Positions 2,155 to 14,127 of a DNA stretch of 14,127 bases are shown here, in pieces (within the stretch, counting starts at the first letter, position 1; every line of letters starts with the position of its first letter). The position numbers and the translations under genes are program-made. This stretch comes from a virus. The stretch is from positions 1 through 14,127 of IMG/VR virus record IMGVR_UViG_3300021399_000006; one strand, given 5' to 3'. Below the pieces are notes generated by a model. That model searched no databases, was not told the origin of the DNA, and saw only the letters and a program-made list of their open reading frames with translations.

Positions 2155-2200
2155 AATAAACTCCTTTGAAACTTGATTAACGAAACATTTAACAATTAGC

Positions 2201-2224
2201 GGTGCGAGAGGGATTCGAACCCCC
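2201..2224 (-). ncRNA. T-arm plus 3' acceptor strand of a split/giant tRNA-like structure (see finding at 2201-2750)
   Basis: GGGGG-TTCGAAT-CCCTC followed by TCGCACC. There is no local anticodon or D arm. The matching 5' acceptor GGTGCGG lies about 545 nt upstream on the same strand. Confidence 0.45.
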
Positions 2225-2278
2225 AGCCCAATTAAGAGCAACGGTTTTGAAACGGTTTTAGAAGTTTTTAATAACCTC

Positions 2279-2683
2279 CTAAAAAATATAATCTTTAGCA
2301 AAATCAATATTTGCTGTTTGTCCAGATTTTGTTGGTAAAACTCTTAAAGTTTTTTCTACAAAACCATCTTTAGGAGCAGGATATAAATAAAAAATACCAT
2401 CTTTTTCAGTCATAAAAAAATCTATTTCTTTATTTGTATATTTCATTCTTTTGTTTCCTGCTCCTGTTGAATGCTGGCTATATCCATTAAAAACAAATGC
2501 ACTATGCTCTTCATCCTTCCATCGAGATGTTTTAATTTGTATTTTTAATAGTTTATTATCTACATCTAAAATAAAATCATATCTTGCATTATCAAACAGT
2601 GGTTTAGAAACAATAAAACCTGCTTCTATACATTTTAAGAAACATTTTTGCTATGTCATTGCTCCTTGAATTTGTGTATTCAT
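2279..2683 (-). CDS. hypothetical protein (about 134 codons) containing one internal in-frame TAG (2651-2653); possible nuclease-like (D..D.K) core
   Basis: Reading frame ATG(2683) NTQIQGAMT-TAG-QKCFLKCIEAGFIVSKPLFDNARYDFILDVDNKLLKIQIKTSRWKDEEHSAFVFNGYSQHSTGAGNKRMKYTNKEIDFFMTEKDGIFYLYPAPKDGFVEKTLRVLPTKSGQTANIDFAKDYIF. It is open for about 122 codons after the TAG in AT-rich DNA and ends at TAG 2279-2281 (next TAA 2258-2260). No well-spaced SD; the start is uncertain. Confidence 0.45.
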
Positions 2684-2934
2684 ATTATTATTTTTAAAAC
2701 TAATAATTCCGTTTCAAGACCGCACCTCCTCCCCACTAAGGTACCGCACCATATCAAGGCTTAAAAAGTTTCATTTTCTCTTTTTTCAGAGGTCAATTCC
2801 TATTAAGAATAAGAAATAGAAAACTTTCAAATAAAAGAAACTTGTCTATTTTACGACCAAAATTCTCCTAAGAATCATGTTAAATCTTGTAATTTTCAAC
2901 CCATTAAAAATAAAATTGCCGTATAAGCCTTAGC

Positions 2935-3021: not shown

Positions 3022-3032
3022 AAATAGGTAAC

Positions 3033-3104
3033 CACCCTTCTGGGATTCGAACCCAGGACTGTTGATTTAGAGTCAACTGACTTAGACCGCTTGTCGAAAG
3101 GGCG
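3033..3104 (-). tRNA. suppressor tRNA, anticodon CTA (reads UAG amber)
   Basis: Acceptor CGCCCTT/AAGGGTG (one G.U), U8 present, D-stem GAC/GTC, anticodon stem GTTGA/TCAAC with canonical 7-nt loop C-U-CUA-A-A, T-arm CTGGG-TTCGAAT-CCCAG, discriminator G. D-loop and discriminator are similar to the neighbouring tRNA-Gln. Confidence 0.8.
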
Positions 3105-4625: not shown

Positions 4626-4703
4626 ATAACAAGACATATAATTTGTAAATAATGACTGTTTACGAGACAGTTGTCTTAACCATTTGACTACATAAGCGAC
4701 AAT

Positions 4704-5532: not shown

Positions 5533-6179
5533 CAATTGAATAACTTAATTATATCTATGAATAACACCCCTTCGGGTTGCTGGCAATAACCTTCTCTTAT
5601 ATTCGACCACCAAGGAGACATACCTGAGCGGTTAGGAGCGACCTAAACGCTATATGCCCCATCTGTTCAAGACAGATAAATCTTGTAGAGGACTTTGCAT
5701 ACCTCTAACTTTCAGCTACCTTTCAGAAAATTTACATAATAACTTGTATAAGAAGTTATTCAAATTTTGTTGTCTACGCACTTTTAGCCTACTCGTACCT
5801 TGACCCAATCTTATACACGACTTCCGCCGCTTCATGTGCGCTAACCCCTTATGGAAATTCCAAGGTTTGCAAAGTTTTCCACGCTTCACCTAACTTGGAT
5901 TAGTGCTCTCGTTAAAGAACCCTATATTATGGAGTCGATTGGAACAGTGTCTTTAAGAGCGATTACCCCAGTGCTATTGACTAAACCATTTCTTTAGACC
6001 TGGCGTTTTATACGTCACCGCATAAAAACTTTTTTCCTAAGAAAGTATCCTTCCTTATTCTGGTTATTCGTAAAGCCAATACCTCAGCGTCATGGAATTG
6101 ACGTTTATCACTGAGTTGCTTCATAAATATAACTAAATTATTCAATTGTCAATGTTCTTTTGTTGATAATTCAACATAG

Positions 6180-6910: not shown

Positions 6911-6990
6911 AGTCTCCTTTTATCTCTCTTATATTTTAAAAGAGCCAAAAAATAATGCTCTGAAAGAGGAAAGTATGATACGTATCAAGT

Positions 6991-7063
6991 AGCCCCTGGG
7001 GGAATTGAACCCACCATCTTGACCTTGAAAGGGTCATATCCTGTCCTTTTAGAAGAAGGAGCC
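6991..7063 (-). tRNA. tRNA-Glu (anticodon TTC)
   Basis: Anticodon stem TGACC/GGTCA with loop CTTTCAA. T-arm GTGGG-TTCAATT-CCCCC. Acceptor GGCTCCT/AGGGGCT (all paired including G.U). Confidence 0.85.
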
Positions 7064-9920: not shown

Positions 9921-9936
9921 ATTTTTCTCCTTTAAT

Positions 9937-10007
9937 TGCGGGGATAGGATTCGAACCTACAATCACCGGGTCAAAAACCGGCCGCTTTACCGTTAGCGTA
10001 CCCCGCG
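9937..10007 (-). tRNA. unusual tRNA with an E. coli tRNA-fMet-like acceptor stem (CGCGGGG ... CCCCGCA-A, C1xA72) and an 8-nt anticodon loop UUUUUGAC (UUG or UUU reading; Gln-like D-loop)
   Basis: T-arm GTAGG-TTCGAAT-CCTAT. D-stem CGCT/AGCG perfect. The anticodon stem GCCGG/CCGGT closes an 8-nt loop. D-loop AACGGTAA and loop TTTTGAx resemble the tRNA-Gln at 232-302. Confidence 0.5.
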
Positions 10008-10980: not shown

Positions 10981-11655
10981 CTAACTTAATTCAATTATAT
11001 TATCACAGATTTTACAAGAAGTAGGTTCTATTAAACATCTTCTATTGCATCTTGAACGATATTCTCCAAATTGGGGAAGAATCGTACTATTAATTTCCTC
11101 TCCATCGTAATTATAAATTATAATTTTTAATTTTCCATCCCATTTATGTTTTATTCCGTAAATTTCATATAAAGCATTATATGCTTTGTTTTCATTTACA
11201 TCCATAAATTCAAAGGTATCTATAAATTGAGCATAGTAAGGAATATCTTCTGGACGAATAAAGAAATTTTTTATAGTATCTATACTATCCCATTTTTTCT
11301 CACAATAATTGCAAAAACATCTTAGGCGGATTCCCTTTTTTTTAGTAAAATCACTTGTAATTTTCATCATAAAAGCTAAATTTCCGCCAATTCTGATGTC
11401 TGTTACATTTAAAGAACAAAATCCAAGCAGATTTTCCCAATCACAGCAAATATATTGATAATAATGAGGAATATTTAATGAATTAAATTTTTCTTCTATT
11501 TCTTTATTATAAATAAAACTACGTACCGATATATTAGGACAGATTTCCGCCAATGCACCTAAAATTGTAAAATCTTTTTCATCTAAAGGTGCTGTTGTAA
11601 TAATATTAATACGATAATCTTTATATTCAGAAATAAAATCATATAATTCTTTCAT
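10981..11655 (-). CDS. hypothetical Cys-rich protein (224 aa); terminates with TAG
   Basis: Long ORF with multiple CxC/CxxC clusters; weak SD; stop codon is TAG (10981-10983). Confidence 0.65.
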   Translation of the reverse strand: MKELYDFISEYKDYRINIITTAPLDEKDFTILGALAEICPNISVRSFIYNKEIEEKFNSLNIPHYYQYICCDWENLLGFCSLNVTDIRIGGNLAFMMKITSDFTKKKGIRLRCFCNYCEKKWDSIDTIKNFFIRPEDIPYYAQFIDTFEFMDVNENKAYNALYEIYGIKHKWDGKLKIIIYNYDGEEINSTILPQFGEYRSRCNRRCLIEPTSCKICDNIIELS

Positions 11656-11755
11656 TTTAGGTTTATACCTAATACTAATTTCTATTTTATCTTTATTGAA
11701 ATATTTAAAATTCCTATAAAATGGTATCTAAAATTTCATCCTAATCCTATCCTTT

Positions 11756-12394
11756 CTATTCTCGGAATCCTGAAAAGTCAATAATAATAGGATGACCATT
11801 TTTATATCCTACATTATCATAAGTTAAATCATCATCCCATTTAAGTTTTTTAATTAAAGTAAGAAATTCTTTAAACTCTTTTGGCCCACAATCTTTTAAT
11901 AAATCTATACACCAATCTGTATTTAAATCGTAATAACAATGATGTTTATGTAAAAAAGAATCCATTTTTATTGTTTTCTCTTTTGTTTTTTTGTAAGAAT
12001 TGTTAAAAGGGGTGCATTTTTCTTGTAAATAAATAGGATAATCGTCTACATAACCAATAAAAATAGTTTCCGCAAAAAATTTTTTAAAACGTGTAGAACA
12101 AATATCTTCATATCGTTCTACTTCTACATAGCAATAATCCCATTCGCATTCGGAACTTGCTCCAGTAAAATTACAAAAATTACCTTCGTAACATCCCTGA
12201 AAAGGAATTTTTATAACATAATCCTTATTTCTTGGTAAAATTGCAAGTTTCGTTGCTCCAAAATCATAATTAAAAATATATCCTTTATCAAAAAGATACG
12301 AAACCAATTCATCTACTCTTGTATCATCAAAAGCAGGATTTAAAAAGTTAAAACCTTTAAACATATTAAGAATTTCATCTTCATTAAATGTCAT
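11756..12394 (-). CDS. hypothetical protein (212 aa); terminates with TAG
   Basis: Long ORF; SD AAAAGGAG 12 nt upstream; promoter 12428-12456; stop codon TAG (11756-11758). Confidence 0.7.
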   Translation of the reverse strand: MTFNEDEILNMFKGFNFLNPAFDDTRVDELVSYLFDKGYIFNYDFGATKLAILPRNKDYVIKIPFQGCYEGNFCNFTGASSECEWDYCYVEVERYEDICSTRFKKFFAETIFIGYVDDYPIYLQEKCTPFNNSYKKTKEKTIKMDSFLHKHHCYYDLNTDWCIDLLKDCGPKEFKEFLTLIKKLKWDDDLTYDNVGYKNGHPIIIDFSGFRE

Positions 12395-12427
12395 ATATTA
12401 ATTATTCTCCTTTTATTTTATATTTTT

Positions 12428-12456
12428 ATTATAACAAAAAAAATAAAAAAAATCAA
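12428..12456 (-). promoter_or_regulatory. promoter TTGATT-17-TGTTATAAT; the -35 overlaps the upstream terminator stem
   Basis: -35 at 12451-12456, -10 at 12428-12433, TGn present; drives the CDS at 11756-12394. Confidence 0.65.
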
Positions 12457-12482
12457 AGAGACCCCGTAAAGGTATCTCTTTG
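12454..12482 (-). terminator. rho-independent terminator after the 286-aa gene
   Basis: Hairpin CAAAGAGA(cc)-CCGTAAA-(gg)TATCTCTTTG followed on the minus strand by ATTTTTTTTATTTTTTTTG. Confidence 0.7.
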
Positions 12483-12493
12483 ATTTTAGAGAA

Positions 12494-13354
12494 TTAAATC
12501 TTAATAGCTTTACAACGATTAAGAACAGTCTGTTTAACACCATTATAAATCTGATGTTTCTTTACAGTGCCAGTAAGAAGAATGGTGTCTCCGTTTTCAA
12601 TATCTTCATCAAGACCCGCGCCAGAGCAAAACCATGTAAGTACGTTATCACCCATTTTGAAAGTATACAGAATAGAAGTTCCATAATAACTTTCAACTGT
12701 GCGGGAACCTACAAGAGTAACATGAAGGTCTCTCAGGCGTTCCTTTTCTTCTCCAATATATTCAGAGTTAGATTTCGGCATACATGCTTCTTTAGCGGCA
12801 TCCGCTACTTCCTTAGCCCCTTCCTTGACAAGAGCCTTCTTAATACGCCATTTCCAATCAAAAACTTCATCAAAAGGAACAGAAGTCATGCCATATTCTG
12901 CGGGGACATCAATAGGATGAGAAGCATACCATCCCAGTTCAGGCTTAAAGCGGCAACCAGCTTCTTTAAGAGTATCTTTAATAGCGTAAGTATCTCCAAG
13001 GATAAGCCAGACAAGAGGATTCTCTATATCATAACCATTTTCCGCAAGGTAAATCCGCTTATTCTCTTCGCTTGCAGACTCCAGACCAAGCATTTCCGCA
13101 GCTTTCTTTTCCGCTTTTCTAGCTTTTGCTTTTTCCTGATTGGCAACGTACTTTTCATACTCTTCGGGAGTATAAGCCTTTACCCACTGACCCAGGCGGC
13201 GGCCGCCATTACAACGGAAGCATGTACCAAACCATCCGTACACACCAGTTCCGCCGCACTTATCACAAACTTCTTCAATATATGCTTTATGAGTATTTTC
13301 ATCTACTTTAACAATAGTTGCGTGTGCGTAAGAAGGGGCTACCATCCAAGTCAT
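12494..13354 (-). CDS. hypothetical protein (286 aa) with N-terminal double CxxCxGxG zinc-ribbon motif
   Basis: Long ORF; SD AAAAGGAGAAAGAAT-ATG; motifs CDKCGGTG and CFRCNGGR; intrinsic terminator immediately downstream. Confidence 0.75.
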   Translation of the reverse strand: MTWMVAPSYAHATIVKVDENTHKAYIEEVCDKCGGTGVYGWFGTCFRCNGGRRLGQWVKAYTPEEYEKYVANQEKAKARKAEKKAAEMLGLESASEENKRIYLAENGYDIENPLVWLILGDTYAIKDTLKEAGCRFKPELGWYASHPIDVPAEYGMTSVPFDEVFDWKWRIKKALVKEGAKEVADAAKEACMPKSNSEYIGEEKERLRDLHVTLVGSRTVESYYGTSILYTFKMGDNVLTWFCSGAGLDEDIENGDTILLTGTVKKHQIYNGVKQTVLNRCKAIKI

Positions 13355-13380
13355 ATTCTTTCTCCTTTTCTTTTGATTAA

Positions 13381-13620
13381 TCAGTGAAATCTACGTTCAA
13401 CTTCTCTTTTAATTTTTGCCTTATCTCTTGCAGAAAGGTCATTCAGATTAAGGTTATGTTTATCAAAAACCATTTCCTGAATATCATTAATATCATAACC
13501 TCTCTGAGCAAGAGAAACGAAATCTTTAATGGAAGCGTTAATACGGGCCTCTTTCGTATTTACCATATTATCCATTCCTTCTGCTTCCATCATATAGAGA
13601 CCATAAGGTGTATTAAACAT
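13381..13620 (-). CDS. hypothetical protein (79 aa)
   Basis: ORF; AAAGGA upstream; TGA stop. Only 26 nt separate its stop from the start of the next gene (operon). Confidence 0.6.
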   Translation of the reverse strand: MFNTPYGLYMMEAEGMDNMVNTKEARINASIKDFVSLAQRGYDINDIQEMVFDKHNLNLNDLSARDKAKIKREVERRFH

Positions 13621-13657
13621 TTTTTTTCATTTCCTTTCTTTCCTTATCTTTATATAT

Positions 13658-13686
13658 ATTATATAAAAAATTTTAAAAAAAATAAA
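13658..13686 (-). promoter_or_regulatory. putative promoter with good -10 (TATAAT) and weak -35 (TTTATT), downstream of a terminator
   Basis: The AT-rich cassette tatatatattatataaaaaattttaaaaaaaataaa resembles the other promoter cassettes and is followed by SD-ATG at 13620. Confidence 0.35.
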
Positions 13687-13706
13687 GGGGATGTATTACA
13701 TCCCCT
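13686..13706 (-). terminator. rho-independent terminator
   Basis: Hairpin AGGGGATGT-ATT-ACATCCCCT followed on the minus strand by TTTATTTTTTTTAAAATTTTTT; directly after the TAA stop of the upstream gene. Confidence 0.75.
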
Positions 13707-13711
13707 AAATA

Positions 13712-14127
13712 TTATTTATAAAAAGTTTTATTTAAATTATTTTTTGAGCAACTGATTACCATTTTATCAGAATAACAATCAATATAACATCTACCATTTT
13801 CATATGCCATCATAACGATAGCACCTTTATTAATAAAGACTTTATATGTTGATATACGGCCTCCGCTTGATTTACCATGATGATAATTAGATAATCCTAC
13901 TTTAGGTTTAGCGGCATTAATTTGTACTATCTTAACTCCATTTCTATCAGAGTGCCACTAAAGTTTAAATACATCACATTTTAAAGCACTACCTTTTTCT
14001 TTTACGAGTACGTCTATTGCTTCATACGATAGGTCTCCCGCAGTAAAAAATTTCCATCCATTTAAATTAAACATTAATGCAACAGACATCATGTTAACAA
14101 AATGGTGGTCATCAAATTGTTTAAGTT
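13712..14127 (-). CDS. 3' part of a gene that starts beyond the window end; about 138 codons open with one internal in-frame TAG (13958-13960)
   Basis: Frame ...LKQFDDHHFVNMMSVALMFNLNGWKFFTAGDLSYEAIDVLVKEKGSALKCDVFKL-TAG-WHSDRNGVKIVQINAAKPKVGLSNYHHGKSSGGRISTYKVFINKGAIVMMAYENGRCYIDCYSDKMVISCSKNNLNKTFYK-TAA. The stop lies just before the terminator hairpin. No TAA or TGA occurs across the whole span. Confidence 0.45.

What the first reader, a model, noticed from the sequence alone, without database searches (positions are those of the whole stretch)
2279..2683. Long open reading frame interrupted only by an in-frame TAG near its 5' end (stop-codon readthrough or recoding candidate)
From ATG 2683 the frame reads MNTQIQGAMT-TAG-QKCF... 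and stays free of TAA/TGA for about 122 further codons. In roughly 70% AT sequence the chance of that is under 1%. Under the standard code only a 48-aa C-terminal fragment would be expressed. The same window encodes a CUA suppressor tRNA upstream in the same transcription unit. The reconstructed protein has a possible PD-(D/E)xK-like segment (YDFILDVDNKLLKIQIK).
Basis: seen in the sequence. Interest (0 to 1): 0.85.

Follow-up and report, generated by a model that had tools for sequence, protein, structure and literature searches.

The report
Recoded homing endonuclease inside split tRNA
The interrupted reading frame is a real phage gene for a DNA-cutting "homing" enzyme in which the stop codon TAG is read as an amino acid, and the gene sits in the anticodon loop of a serine tRNA gene in an insert that has no self-splicing RNA, an arrangement I could not find described.

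Summary
The true gene is 2258-2683 (minus strand), 141 codons. It has TWO in-frame TAGs, at codon 11 and codon 135.

The protein is a full-length PD-(D/E)XK homing endonuclease (Pfam PF11645, E 9e-25; I-Ssp6803I/2OST, E 1e-12). Both TAGs are conserved in five independent assemblies that differ mostly by synonymous changes. Relatives of this phage have no TAG stops but many in-frame TAGs, and a tRNA(CUA) lies 350 nt upstream. So this is stop-codon recoding of a known kind.

TAG is read as Gln by precedent. However, both endonuclease TAGs fall on columns that are more than 95% Glu. One of these is the predicted catalytic Glu. Glu is therefore not excluded.

The unexpected part is the setting. 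The gene fills a 466-nt insert lying exactly between nucleotides 36 and 37 of a tRNA-Ser(UGA) gene (2200-2750). Only about 40 nt of the insert are non-coding, there is no ribozyme, and the insert ends pair with the anticodon loop in a covarying helix. The same design recurs in 10 tRNA types in about 30 phage loci, including the cultured Enterococcus phage EFP01. Whether the tRNA is spliced is unknown.

The parts
2258..2683 (-). Homing endonuclease gene, 141 codons plus TAA; PD-(D/E)XK, PF11645 / I-Ssp6803I family
   Evidence: Pfam PF11645, E 8.9e-25, covering residues 1-132. 2OST, E 1.3e-12. 471 homologues, the closest 94-98% identical and 141 aa long. Invariant D36, Q49, K51.
2651..2653 (-). 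In-frame TAG, codon 11
   Evidence: The homologue column is E in 114 of 120. All five 'Q' entries are TAG in the DNA. hhalign places it at the position of Hjc catalytic E9 (weak).
2279..2281 (-).
   Evidence: The homologue column is E in 115 of 120; the three 'Q' entries are the TAG-bearing proteins P0001-3. Relatives have GAG at this codon. The conserved tail EVIKNF follows.
2714..2750 (-). Exon 1 of tRNA-Ser(UGA): acceptor, D arm, anticodon stem 5' strand, loop nucleotides 32-36 (CTTGA)
   Evidence: Read from the sequence. ARAGORN intron mode finds a split tRNA at 2199-2750. Parse.
2248..2713 (-). 466-nt intervening sequence between tRNA nucleotides 36 and 37. It has 30 nt before the ATG and 10 nt after the stop, and no ribozyme
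   Evidence: No Rfam intron or ribozyme match at E up to 10, nor in 14 related loci. The exact 36|37 position comes from empty/occupied allele pairs.
2200..2247 (-). Exon 2 of tRNA-Ser(UGA): nucleotides 37-38 (AA), anticodon stem 3' strand, long variable arm, T arm, acceptor 3' strand, discriminator G
2709..2717 (-). 5' strand of the splice-site helix (TTGAAACGG: tRNA nucleotides 33-36 plus the first 5 intron nucleotides)
   Evidence: It pairs with 2247-2255. The helix is predicted in the fold of the mini-precursor. Covariation in 27 loci.
2247..2255 (-). 3' strand of the splice-site helix (CCGTTTCAA: last 8 intron nucleotides plus nucleotide 37)
3032..3104 (-). Suppressor tRNA, anticodon CUA, which decodes TAG
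   Evidence: ARAGORN. Rfam tRNA 56.4 bits. Sequence and parse.

Best explanation
Window 2258-2683 (minus strand) is an intact, expressed-type gene for a PD-(D/E)XK homing endonuclease of the I-Ssp6803I family. It belongs to a large phage, probably infecting Bacillota, that uses TAG as a sense codon.

Decoding. The two TAGs (codons 11 and 135) are decoded by the phage's own tRNA(CUA), which lies just upstream in the same tRNA array. The inserted residue is most likely Gln; Glu is not excluded. Inferred: because the first TAG is at codon 11, no full-length enzyme can be made until the suppressor tRNA has accumulated, so the TAGs act as a timing or dosage gate.

Location. The gene is the cargo of a 466-nt mobile insert that sits exactly between nucleotides 36 and 37 of the phage's tRNA-Ser(UGA) gene. 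Inferred by analogy with I-Ssp6803I and from presence/absence alleles: the enzyme cuts the insert-free tRNA gene in its pseudo-palindromic anticodon stem-loop DNA, and the insert is copied in during repair (homing).

RNA level. The insert has no ribozyme. Instead, its last nucleotides pair with the anticodon and the first insert nucleotides. This extends the anticodon stem by about 8-9 bp and puts both junctions inside one continuous helix. Inferred and unproven: this helix is the signal for protein enzymes. They either cut and rejoin the precursor, giving a functional tRNA-Ser, or only cut it, releasing the endonuclease mRNA and sacrificing the tRNA.
For: Gene and family:
-.

TAG is a sense codon:
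- Both TAGs are kept in 5 assemblies, with synonymous changes outnumbering non-synonymous ones.
- A third in-frame TAG lies in the window ORF 13712-14125, where relative L039 has CAA.
- Recoded relatives are documented.
- The suppressor tRNA is shown.

Split tRNA:
-.

Exact 36|37 insertion, no duplication:
- tRNA-Ala is intact in L002 and split in L003.
- tRNA-Asn is intact in iF6 and 28 other Schiekvirus records but split in Enterococcus phage EFP01; the two flanks add up to 35+36=71 nt.

Mobility:
- The same intron (95.7% nt identity) sits in tRNA-Ser genes with different stems, and the flanks are otherwise unrelated.

Recurrence:
- 28 loci, anticodons UGA, UGG, UGC, UAA, CAU, UUU, UGU, UAU, UUC, GUU.

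Helix:
- 91% of cells are paired against 54% in shuffles (0/500 shuffles reach the observed value).
- 10 of 11 intron-helix pairs show double changes.
- Sliding the register by one column drops pairing to 40-44%.

No ribozyme:
-. The non-coding part of the insert is as short as 13+11 nt (L011).

Gating idea:
- The Borges et al. preprint describes a recoded group I intron endonuclease inside an early gene and interprets it the same way.
Against: - Nothing here shows transcription, TAG suppression, DNA cleavage or RNA processing. All steps beyond sequence anatomy are inferred.
- Two window ORFs (11756-12394, 10981-11655) end at TAG under the standard code, so TAG is not purely a sense codon in this stretch.
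- The amino acid at TAG is unresolved. Both endonuclease TAGs lie on columns that are 95-96% Glu with no genuine Gln. The third window TAG lies on a column with Q in 14 of 24 homologues and E in none.
- Intact exons do not prove splicing, because the intron has evidently moved recently.
- Four loci (L007, L010, L013, L022) carry degenerate or missing tRNA halves.
- No ORF-less mini-introns were found.
- The endonuclease gene lacks the strong Shine-Dalgarno sequence seen on neighbouring genes.
Confidence: 0.85

Rival explanations
1. TAG is read as glutamate, not glutamine, in this phage lineage. This would be a TAG=Glu code, unknown in phages, and the endonuclease would keep its catalytic Glu-11.
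For: - Codon 11 column: E 114, M 1. All 5 'Q' entries are TAG in the DNA.
- Codon 135 column: E in 115 of 120, D 1. All 3 'Q' entries are TAG.
- TAG at codon 11 arose in at least two endonuclease sub-lineages, yet no CAA/CAG is ever seen there.
- hhalign puts residue 11 on Hjc catalytic E9.
- A Codetta-like sum over 12 TAG sites (endonuclease plus the L040 RecJ-like gene) gives log10 likelihood E -6.6 against Q -18.7.
- In the calibration, the TAG-site columns look like true-E columns rather than true-Q columns.
- The GH114 gene in L039 has 'WPH*YY' against 'WPGEKW' in 6OJ1.
- The suppressor has C1-G72, whereas the phage tRNA-Gln genes have A1-U72.
Against: - The window's third TAG aligns to CAA in relative L039, on a column with Q 14 and E 0 of 24.
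- L042 TAG-107 corresponds to CAA in L040, which is 89% identical.
- In an AT-rich genome new TAGs arise mainly from GAG, AAG and CAG, so E and K columns are expected even if TAG=Gln.
- I-Ssp6803I itself has Gln at the residue aligned to codon 11.
- Sequences within a column are not independent.
- Overall tRNA similarity and variable-loop length are not diagnostic among these phage tRNAs.
- All published phage TAG reassignments found are to Gln.
- Other phages with this endonuclease family place TAG on invariant Gln (L024, L028).
Confidence: 0.3
2. The insert is not a spliced intron. It simply breaks the tRNA-Ser gene. The end-to-end helix, stacked on the anticodon stem, is a double-strand RNase (RNase III-type) site that releases and stabilises the endonuclease mRNA from the tRNA-array transcript. 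This would resemble ribosomal RNA intervening sequences, which are cut out without re-ligation.
For: - No ribozyme is present, and no bacterial tRNA-splicing endonuclease is known (general knowledge).
- The intron is a recent arrival: 1 of 30 Schiekviruses carries it, and the same intron sits in unrelated exons. Intact exons therefore need not reflect selection.
- Decayed or missing halves occur in L007, L010, L013 and L022.
- In L010 the ORF is flanked by a long hairpin outside any complete tRNA.
- No ORF-less derivatives were found.
- Phage tRNA genes are usually dispensable (general knowledge).
Against: - In 28 of 32 loci both halves form a perfect cloverleaf, and the split gene is the only tRNA of that anticodon seen in the locus.
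- The endonucleases in split tRNA-Ser genes have diverged to about 51-65% identity while the exons stay intact.
- In every tRNA type the intron 3' end is complementary to that tRNA's own anticodon, in register with the stem. This is what a junction-aligning structure needs.
- The stagger between the two junctions in the helix is 3 nt, not the 2 nt of RNase III (derived from the register).
Confidence: 0.4
3. The TAGs are true stops. On this view the gene is a decaying pseudogene, or the TAGs are assembly errors, and only short fragments are made.
For: Homing endonuclease genes often decay. Two other window ORFs end in TAG.
Against: - The same two TAGs occur in five independent assemblies, with 8-11 synonymous against 3-8 non-synonymous codon differences and no other lesion.
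- Six conserved codons follow the second TAG.
- Relatives use no TAG stops.
- A suppressor tRNA is encoded nearby.
Confidence: 0.03
4. The insert is a group I (or group II) self-splicing intron, like the one that carries I-Ssp6803I.
For: The only characterised family member is encoded in a group I intron in a tRNA anticodon loop (for the family; the intron host is from general knowledge, Bonocora and Shub 2001, cited).
Against: - Only about 40 nt of the insert lie outside the ORF (24 nt in L011), against roughly 200 nt for a ribozyme core.
- There is no Rfam match at E up to 10 in the window, nor at gathering threshold in 14 related loci.
- The last exon-1 base is A, C, G or T depending on the tRNA, and the last intron base is A, G or C, so there is no conserved U(-1) or terminal G.
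- The ORF diverges to 35% identity, which leaves no room for a conserved overlapping RNA core.
Confidence: 0.02

Closest known systems
I-Ssp6803I, the PD-(D/E)XK homing endonuclease of the Synechocystis tRNA-fMet group I intron (PDB 2OST; Pfam PF11645)
   Same: It is the same protein family (E 1e-12 to 1e-14 over about 105 residues). Both genes lie inside an insert in a tRNA anticodon loop. Both are expected to target the pseudo-palindromic anticodon stem-loop DNA.
   Different: - There is no group I ribozyme around the ORF.
- The host is a phage tRNA array, not a cyanobacterial chromosome.
- The gene has two in-frame TAG codons.
- The family has Glu at residue 11, where I-Ssp6803I has Gln.
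- The insert ends form a simple helix with the anticodon.
Stop-codon-recoded phages (TAG read as Gln, 'code 15'): crAss-like, Lak, Garnet/Jade-type clades and the phAss-1 group
   Same: Conserved genes carry in-frame TAGs. A phage-encoded tRNA(CUA) is present. TAG is absent as a terminator in relatives. The published idea that recoded stops delay production of an intron endonuclease also fits here.
   Different: Both TAGs in the endonuclease lie on near-invariant Glu columns, so Gln is not secure. No nucleotide-level relative exists in GenBank phages.
Archaeal bulge-helix-bulge introns, including rRNA introns that carry homing endonuclease ORFs
   Same: Both are ribozyme-free inserts whose ends pair so that the two junctions lie in one helix next to the anticodon stem. 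Both can carry an endonuclease ORF in the loop.
   Different: No 3-nt bulges are predicted; the helix is continuous. The position is 36/37, not 37/38. The hosts are bacteria, which have no known splicing endonuclease.
Intervening sequences of bacterial 23S rRNA, excised by RNase III without re-ligation
   Same: These are bacterial ribozyme-free inserts whose ends form an extended stem on a pre-existing helix, and some carry small ORFs (general knowledge).
   Different: A tRNA cut in its anticodon loop cannot decode unless it is re-joined. The junction stagger here is 3 nt.
Free-standing homing endonucleases in phage tRNA arrays (for example T4 SegB; PF11645 homologues in Salmonella phage PM10 and Pectobacterium phage My1)
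   Same: The genomic niche is the same. PF11645 homologues sit between tRNA genes in cultured phages.
   Different: Here the ORF is inside the tRNA gene rather than beside it.

Membership tests
PD-(D/E)XK homing endonuclease, PF11645 / I-Ssp6803I family | Full-length sequence match above the curated threshold | tested here: met
   87.7 bits against a cut-off of 26.1, covering residues 1-132 of 141. 2OST, E 1.3e-12.
PD-(D/E)XK homing endonuclease, PF11645 / I-Ssp6803I family | Catalytic motif: helix-1 acid, D of 'PD', and (D/E/Q)xK | tested here: inconclusive
   D36, Q49 and K51 are invariant. The helix-1 position (residue 11) is E in 114/120 homologues but is a TAG here.
PD-(D/E)XK homing endonuclease, PF11645 / I-Ssp6803I family | Site-specific double-strand cleavage of the insert-free allele | not testable with these tools
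   Only indirect evidence is available: empty and occupied alleles differ by an exact insertion at 36|37.
TAG-recoded phage (code 15-like) | In-frame TAGs at conserved positions of real genes | tested here: met
   Endonuclease codons 11 and 135. Window ORF 13712-14125.
TAG-recoded phage (code 15-like) | Phage-encoded suppressor tRNA with anticodon CUA | tested here: met
   3032-3104 on the minus strand.
TAG-recoded phage (code 15-like) | TAG not used as a terminator | tested here: inconclusive
   In the window, 14 ORFs end in TAA 11, TGA 1, TAG 2. Relatives: L039 has 0 TAG of 22 stops, L040 0 of 23, L042 0 of 22.
TAG-recoded phage (code 15-like) | TAG specifies glutamine | tested here: inconclusive
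   Two sites lie on Glu columns and one on a Gln column in the window. The statistics from 12 sites in relatives favour Glu, but they are confounded by which codons can mutate to TAG.
Group I intron | Conserved ribozyme core (P3-P9), U at the end of exon 1, G at the end of the intron | tested here: not met
Archaeal/eukaryal protein-spliced tRNA intron (bulge-helix-bulge) | Two 3-nt bulges separated by a 4-bp helix; canonical position 37/38 | tested here: not met
   The helix is continuous from 33:37 outward in 27 loci. The position is 36/37.
Archaeal/eukaryal protein-spliced tRNA intron (bulge-helix-bulge) | Removal by an endonuclease plus an RNA ligase | not testable with these tools
   No RNA data are available. 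The EFP01 annotation is too sparse to look for a ligase.

The most novel reading that the evidence does not exclude
These inserts would be a new class of mobile tRNA intron in bacterial viruses. They are ribozyme-free. They are defined only by an endonuclease ORF and a short helix that pairs the intron 3' end with the anticodon. They would be removed by proteins, either a host/phage nuclease plus an RNA ligase or the PD-(D/E)XK endonuclease itself, because the RNA helix reproduces the geometry of its DNA target, with junctions 3 nt apart on the two strands. In addition, the TAG at the catalytic Glu-11 codon would work as a switch: the enzyme is active only if the phage suppressor inserts Glu, which would be a TAG=Glu code new for phages.
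Probability: 0.3. Interest if true: 0.9.

Novelty: new variant of a known kind. Interest (0 to 1): 0.62.

Why it matters
The recoding itself adds one more well-documented case of a phage reading TAG as sense. It shows that gene callers using the standard code miss this endonuclease.

The setting is the more interesting part, for four reasons.

1. It shows that phage tRNA arrays contain split tRNA genes that standard tRNA finders and GenBank annotation miss. The tRNA-Asn of the cultured Enterococcus phage EFP01 is an example.

2. The inserts have no ribozyme, yet they carry a covarying helix across both junctions. If they are spliced, that would be enzyme-dependent tRNA splicing in the bacterial world, which is currently thought to be restricted to archaea and eukaryotes.

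3. Because EFP01 is in culture, the question can be tested directly.

4. The placement of TAG on near-invariant Glu codons raises the testable possibility that some phage amber suppressors insert Glu.

Tried and rejected
- Nucleotide searches of GenBank phages with the whole window (megablast) and with its coding part (blastn) found nothing. By protein, the nearest cultured full-length hit is Bacillus phage SP-10.
- Pfam and PHROGs searches on ten other window ORFs gave no function.
- Brute-force joining of exon pairs followed by ARAGORN was too permissive to define junctions. A first automatic parse was off by one register in several loci, because the helix is continuous. It was replaced by a parse constrained by tRNA geometry plus three manual fixes.
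- An apparent 'TAG=Trp' in L009 was my own error: those codons are TGA.
- The suppressor tRNA could not be classified by overall similarity or variable-loop length, because these phage tRNAs are too divergent.
- A search for ORF-less mini-introns at 36/37 found none.
- Literature searches for phage tRNA introns without ribozymes, for PDDEXK_5 and for TAG=Glu in phages found no description. The structural paper on I-Ssp6803I is not in the library.
- The EFP01 annotation was too sparse to look for an RNA ligase.
- RNase III as the precise splicing nuclease is rejected on geometry: the junctions are offset by 3 nt, not 2.

Full report
**1. The observation**

On the minus strand an ATG at 2683 opens a frame that reads MNTQIQGAMT-TAG-QKCF.... 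The frame has no TAA or TGA for 141 codons. Six more codons (EVIKNF) follow before TAA at 2260-2258. At the window's composition a given frame stays free of TAA/TGA for 141 codons with probability 2.4e-4, and only 7 of 1421 such runs in the window are that long. The window is a phage-type tRNA array. ARAGORN finds 28 tRNA genes, all on the minus strand, including one with anticodon CUA at 3032-3104 (Rfam tRNA 56.4 bits).

**2. What the gene is**

With TAG translated, the protein matches Pfam PF11645 (PDDEXK_5) over residues 1-132 (E 8.9e-25; 87.7 bits against a cut-off of 26.1). It also matches the homing endonuclease I-Ssp6803I (PDB 2OST) from residue 2 (E 1.3e-12). The match begins upstream of the TAG, so the gene does not start at the internal Met.

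The large protein collection holds 471 relatives. The closest (94-98% identity) are 141 aa long and were translated by their sources with TAG=Q at both positions. More distant relatives have Glu at both positions and keep the tail 'FEEVIK(D/N)(F/Y/L)'. D36, Q49 and K51 are invariant.

**3. TAG is a sense codon here**

- Five independent assemblies (the window, L001, L035, L036, L037) carry TAG at codons 11 and 135. They differ elsewhere by 8-11 synonymous and 3-8 non-synonymous codons.
- A third in-frame TAG lies in the partial ORF 13712-14125. There the relative L039 (78% nucleotide identity over window 11802-14122) has CAA.
- L039 has stops TAA 14, TGA 8, TAG 0 and nine in-frame TAGs. L001, L040 and L042, which carry closely related endonucleases, show the same pattern.
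- Two window ORFs do end at TAG under the standard code. This is usual in phages whose early genes remain compatible with the host code.
- Strong Shine-Dalgarno sequences, a ROOL RNA and a best cultured protein match to Bacillus phage SP-10 point to a Bacillota host.

**4. Which amino acid?**

Precedent says Gln. In other phages this same endonuclease family has TAG on invariant Gln-49 and Gln-122 (L024, L028). In the window's lineage the evidence is mixed.

For Glu:
- The codon-11 column is E in 114 of 120 homologues, and all five 'Q' entries are TAG in the DNA.
- The codon-135 column is E in 115 of 120, and all three 'Q' entries are TAG.
- TAG at codon 11 occurs in at least two endonuclease sub-lineages, but CAA/CAG never does.
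- hhalign places residue 11 on the helix-1 catalytic Glu of the resolvase Hjc, with D36, Q49 and K51 on D33, E46 and K48.
- A Codetta-like sum over 12 TAG sites (the endonuclease plus a RecJ-like gene of L040) favours Glu over Gln by 12 log10 units. A calibration against true Q and true E positions agrees.

Against Glu:
- The third window TAG lies on a column with Q 14 and E 0 of 24, and is CAA in L039.
- L042's TAG-107 is CAA in the 89%-identical L040 gene.
- I-Ssp6803I has Gln at the residue aligned to codon 11.
- In an AT-rich genome TAG arises mostly from GAG, AAG and CAG, which by itself puts TAGs on E and K columns.

I leave it at Gln about 0.6, Glu about 0.3.

**5. The setting: a split tRNA**

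Immediately upstream of the ORF lies GGTGCGG TA CCT TAGTGGGGAGG AGG T GCGGT CTTGA. Immediately downstream lies AA ACCGT TGCTCTTAATTGGGCT GGGGG TTCGAAT CCCTC TCGCACC G. Joined, these form a perfect class II tRNA-Ser(UGA). ARAGORN in intron mode finds it at 2199-2750. The insert is 466 nt (2248-2713), of which 426 nt are ORF plus stop.

The same arrangement holds for this endonuclease family in L001 (twice), L002, L003 (twice), L035-L038, L040, L042, and in about 19 of 26 IMG/VR loci. The split tRNAs have anticodons UGA, UGG, UGC, UAA, CAU, UUU, UGU, UAU, UUC and GUU.

Two pairs of empty and occupied alleles fix the insertion point uniquely between nucleotides 36 and 37, with no duplication:
- tRNA-Ala in L002 (intact) against L003 (split).
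- tRNA-Asn in Enterococcus phage iF6 (intact) against EFP01 (split); the two flanks add up to 35+36=71 nt.

EFP01 is a cultured Schiekvirus. Only its two records among 31 Schiekvirus records carry the insert, and its annotation lists neither the tRNA nor the endonuclease function. Between the window and L001 only the intron and the adjacent exon bases are similar (95.7%), while the anticodon and acceptor stems differ by compensatory changes. So the element has moved recently between different phages.

**6. Not a known intron type**

- Only 24-60 nt of each insert lie outside the ORF.
- Rfam finds no intron or ribozyme in the window region at E up to 10, nor in 88.8 kb of related loci.
- The bases at the junctions are not those of group I introns.
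- In every locus the last intron nucleotides are complementary to the anticodon and the first intron nucleotides. For the window the pairing is TTGAAACGG/CCGTTTCAA. The result is a continuous helix stacked on the anticodon stem.
- On a gap-free alignment of 27 loci, 91% of cells pair (shuffles 54%, 0/500 reach the observed value). Ten of the 11 intron-helix pairs show changes on both sides. Any one-column slide drops pairing to 40-44%. The first eight pairs (33:37 to +4:-7) are almost always formed.
- A mini-precursor folds into the cloverleaf with this extension (z = -5.4).
- There are no bulges, so this is not the archaeal bulge-helix-bulge motif.
- The two junctions are offset by 3 nt in the helix. 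This is not the 2-nt stagger of RNase III. It is the geometry I recall for I-Ssp6803I on DNA (own knowledge, not checked here), and it follows from the symmetry of the anticodon stem-loop.

**7. How it most likely works**

Shown:
- The gene is intact, and TAG is a sense codon.
- A suppressor tRNA is encoded nearby.
- The insertion is exact at 36|37, and the element is mobile.
- The junction helix covaries.

Inferred:
- The enzyme cuts insert-free tRNA genes and the insert is copied in (homing).
- The TAG at codon 11 blocks synthesis until the suppressor tRNA is present (compare).
- The helix directs protein-mediated RNA processing.

I cannot decide whether that processing rejoins the exons (functional tRNA, about 0.5) or only releases the mRNA and sacrifices the tRNA (about 0.4). 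Intact exons may simply reflect recent invasion. Four loci have decayed halves, and no ORF-less derivatives were found. The stop codon lies 10-14 nt from the 3' helix strand in most loci, so a terminating ribosome would melt the helix. This hints at competition between translation and processing.

**8. Novelty**

Recoding of an intron endonuclease in a phage is published in outline, and PF11645 genes have been counted in jumbo phages as stand-alone genes. In the library available I found no description of ribozyme-free, endonuclease-bearing inserts in phage tRNA anticodon loops, nor of TAG=Glu in phages.

I rate the finding as a new variant of known kinds, with a substantial chance that the RNA-level mechanism is new.

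Noticed in passing
window 5545-6139 (-); also L020 2328-2920 and L032 2430-3016 (Enterococcus phage EFP01): A full-length ROOL RNA (276.7 bits, gathering score 99.1) sits inside the tRNA array. The same RNA lies next to the arrays of two other phages that carry the split-tRNA endonuclease.
   Followed up: partly
window 9936-10007 (-): A tRNA gene with an 8-nt anticodon loop. ARAGORN reports a four-base anticodon 'tttg', while Rfam tRNA scores it 50.8 bits. It could be a Gln(UUG) variant or a frameshift-type tRNA.
   Followed up: no
window 6990-7063 (-) and 4633-4697 (-): Two Rfam tRNA matches (42.9 and 33.1 bits) that ARAGORN does not call. They may be degenerate or unusual tRNA genes.
   Followed up: no
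window 11705-11758 and 11656-11745 (-): ORFs 11756-12394 and 10981-11655 end at TAG. Read-through would add about 17 codons to the first. An upstream ATG (MKF-TAG-IPFYRNF...) preceded by AGGA could extend the second by 28 codons through a TAG. Neither was tested against homologues.
   Followed up: partly
window 13712-14125 (-): This ORF, which carries the third in-frame TAG, is the C-terminal part of a larger metallo-beta-lactamase-fold/CW_7 protein in relatives (P0244, 581 aa, 81% identical over residues 456-581). In L039 it is called as two genes.
   Followed up: partly
L032 1432-1967 = KY549443.1 about 105242-105777: The cultured Enterococcus phage EFP01 has an unannotated tRNA-Asn(GUU) split by a 463-nt insert that encodes EFP01_109 ('hypothetical protein'). 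29 other Schiekvirus records have the intact tRNA-Asn.
   Followed up: yes
L009 2995-3414 (IMGVR_UViG_3300045988_179965); L011 2968-3411: The same endonuclease family carries in-frame TGA codons in other phages. In L009 both lie on Trp/aromatic columns, so that phage reads TGA as Trp. Different phages thus 'recode' the same selfish gene with different stop codons.
   Followed up: partly
L015 5772-5860; L028 2752-2844: These are suppressor tRNAs (anticodon CUA) with a long variable arm (class II shape). Yet L028's endonuclease has TAG on invariant Gln columns, so tRNA shape and inferred amino acid do not match.
   Followed up: no
L014 5471-5543, L022 563-636 (anticodon TTA); L012 6000-6071 (anticodon TCA): Ochre- and opal-type suppressor tRNA genes occur in other phage arrays that carry this endonuclease family.
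   Followed up: no
L035 2336-2462; L031 2273-2389: These are tRNA-like genes with normal acceptor, D and T arms. The anticodon/variable region is replaced by about 70 nt containing hairpins. Rfam tRNA scores them about 49.6 bits over 117-127 nt. The design is similar in two unrelated phages.
   Followed up: partly
L010 2620-3200; L007 2950-3520: These look like variants of the element. In L010 the ORF is flanked by a 17-bp inverted repeat (AAGGTaAGGTCTTTAATT / AATTAAAGACCaAACCTT) outside any complete tRNA, next to an intact tRNA-Ser(UGA). In L007 a lone 5' half of tRNA-Ser precedes the ORF, and a complete class II tRNA with loop CCTGAAA (C at position 33) follows it; this tRNA may be a cleavage-resistant copy.
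   Followed up: no
L011 260-616: A tmRNA gene (96.1 bits) lies within a phage tRNA array.
   Followed up: no
L002 12107-12189: A skipping-rope RNA (48.5 bits) lies in the tRNA-rich region of a 124-kb phage contig.
   Followed up: no
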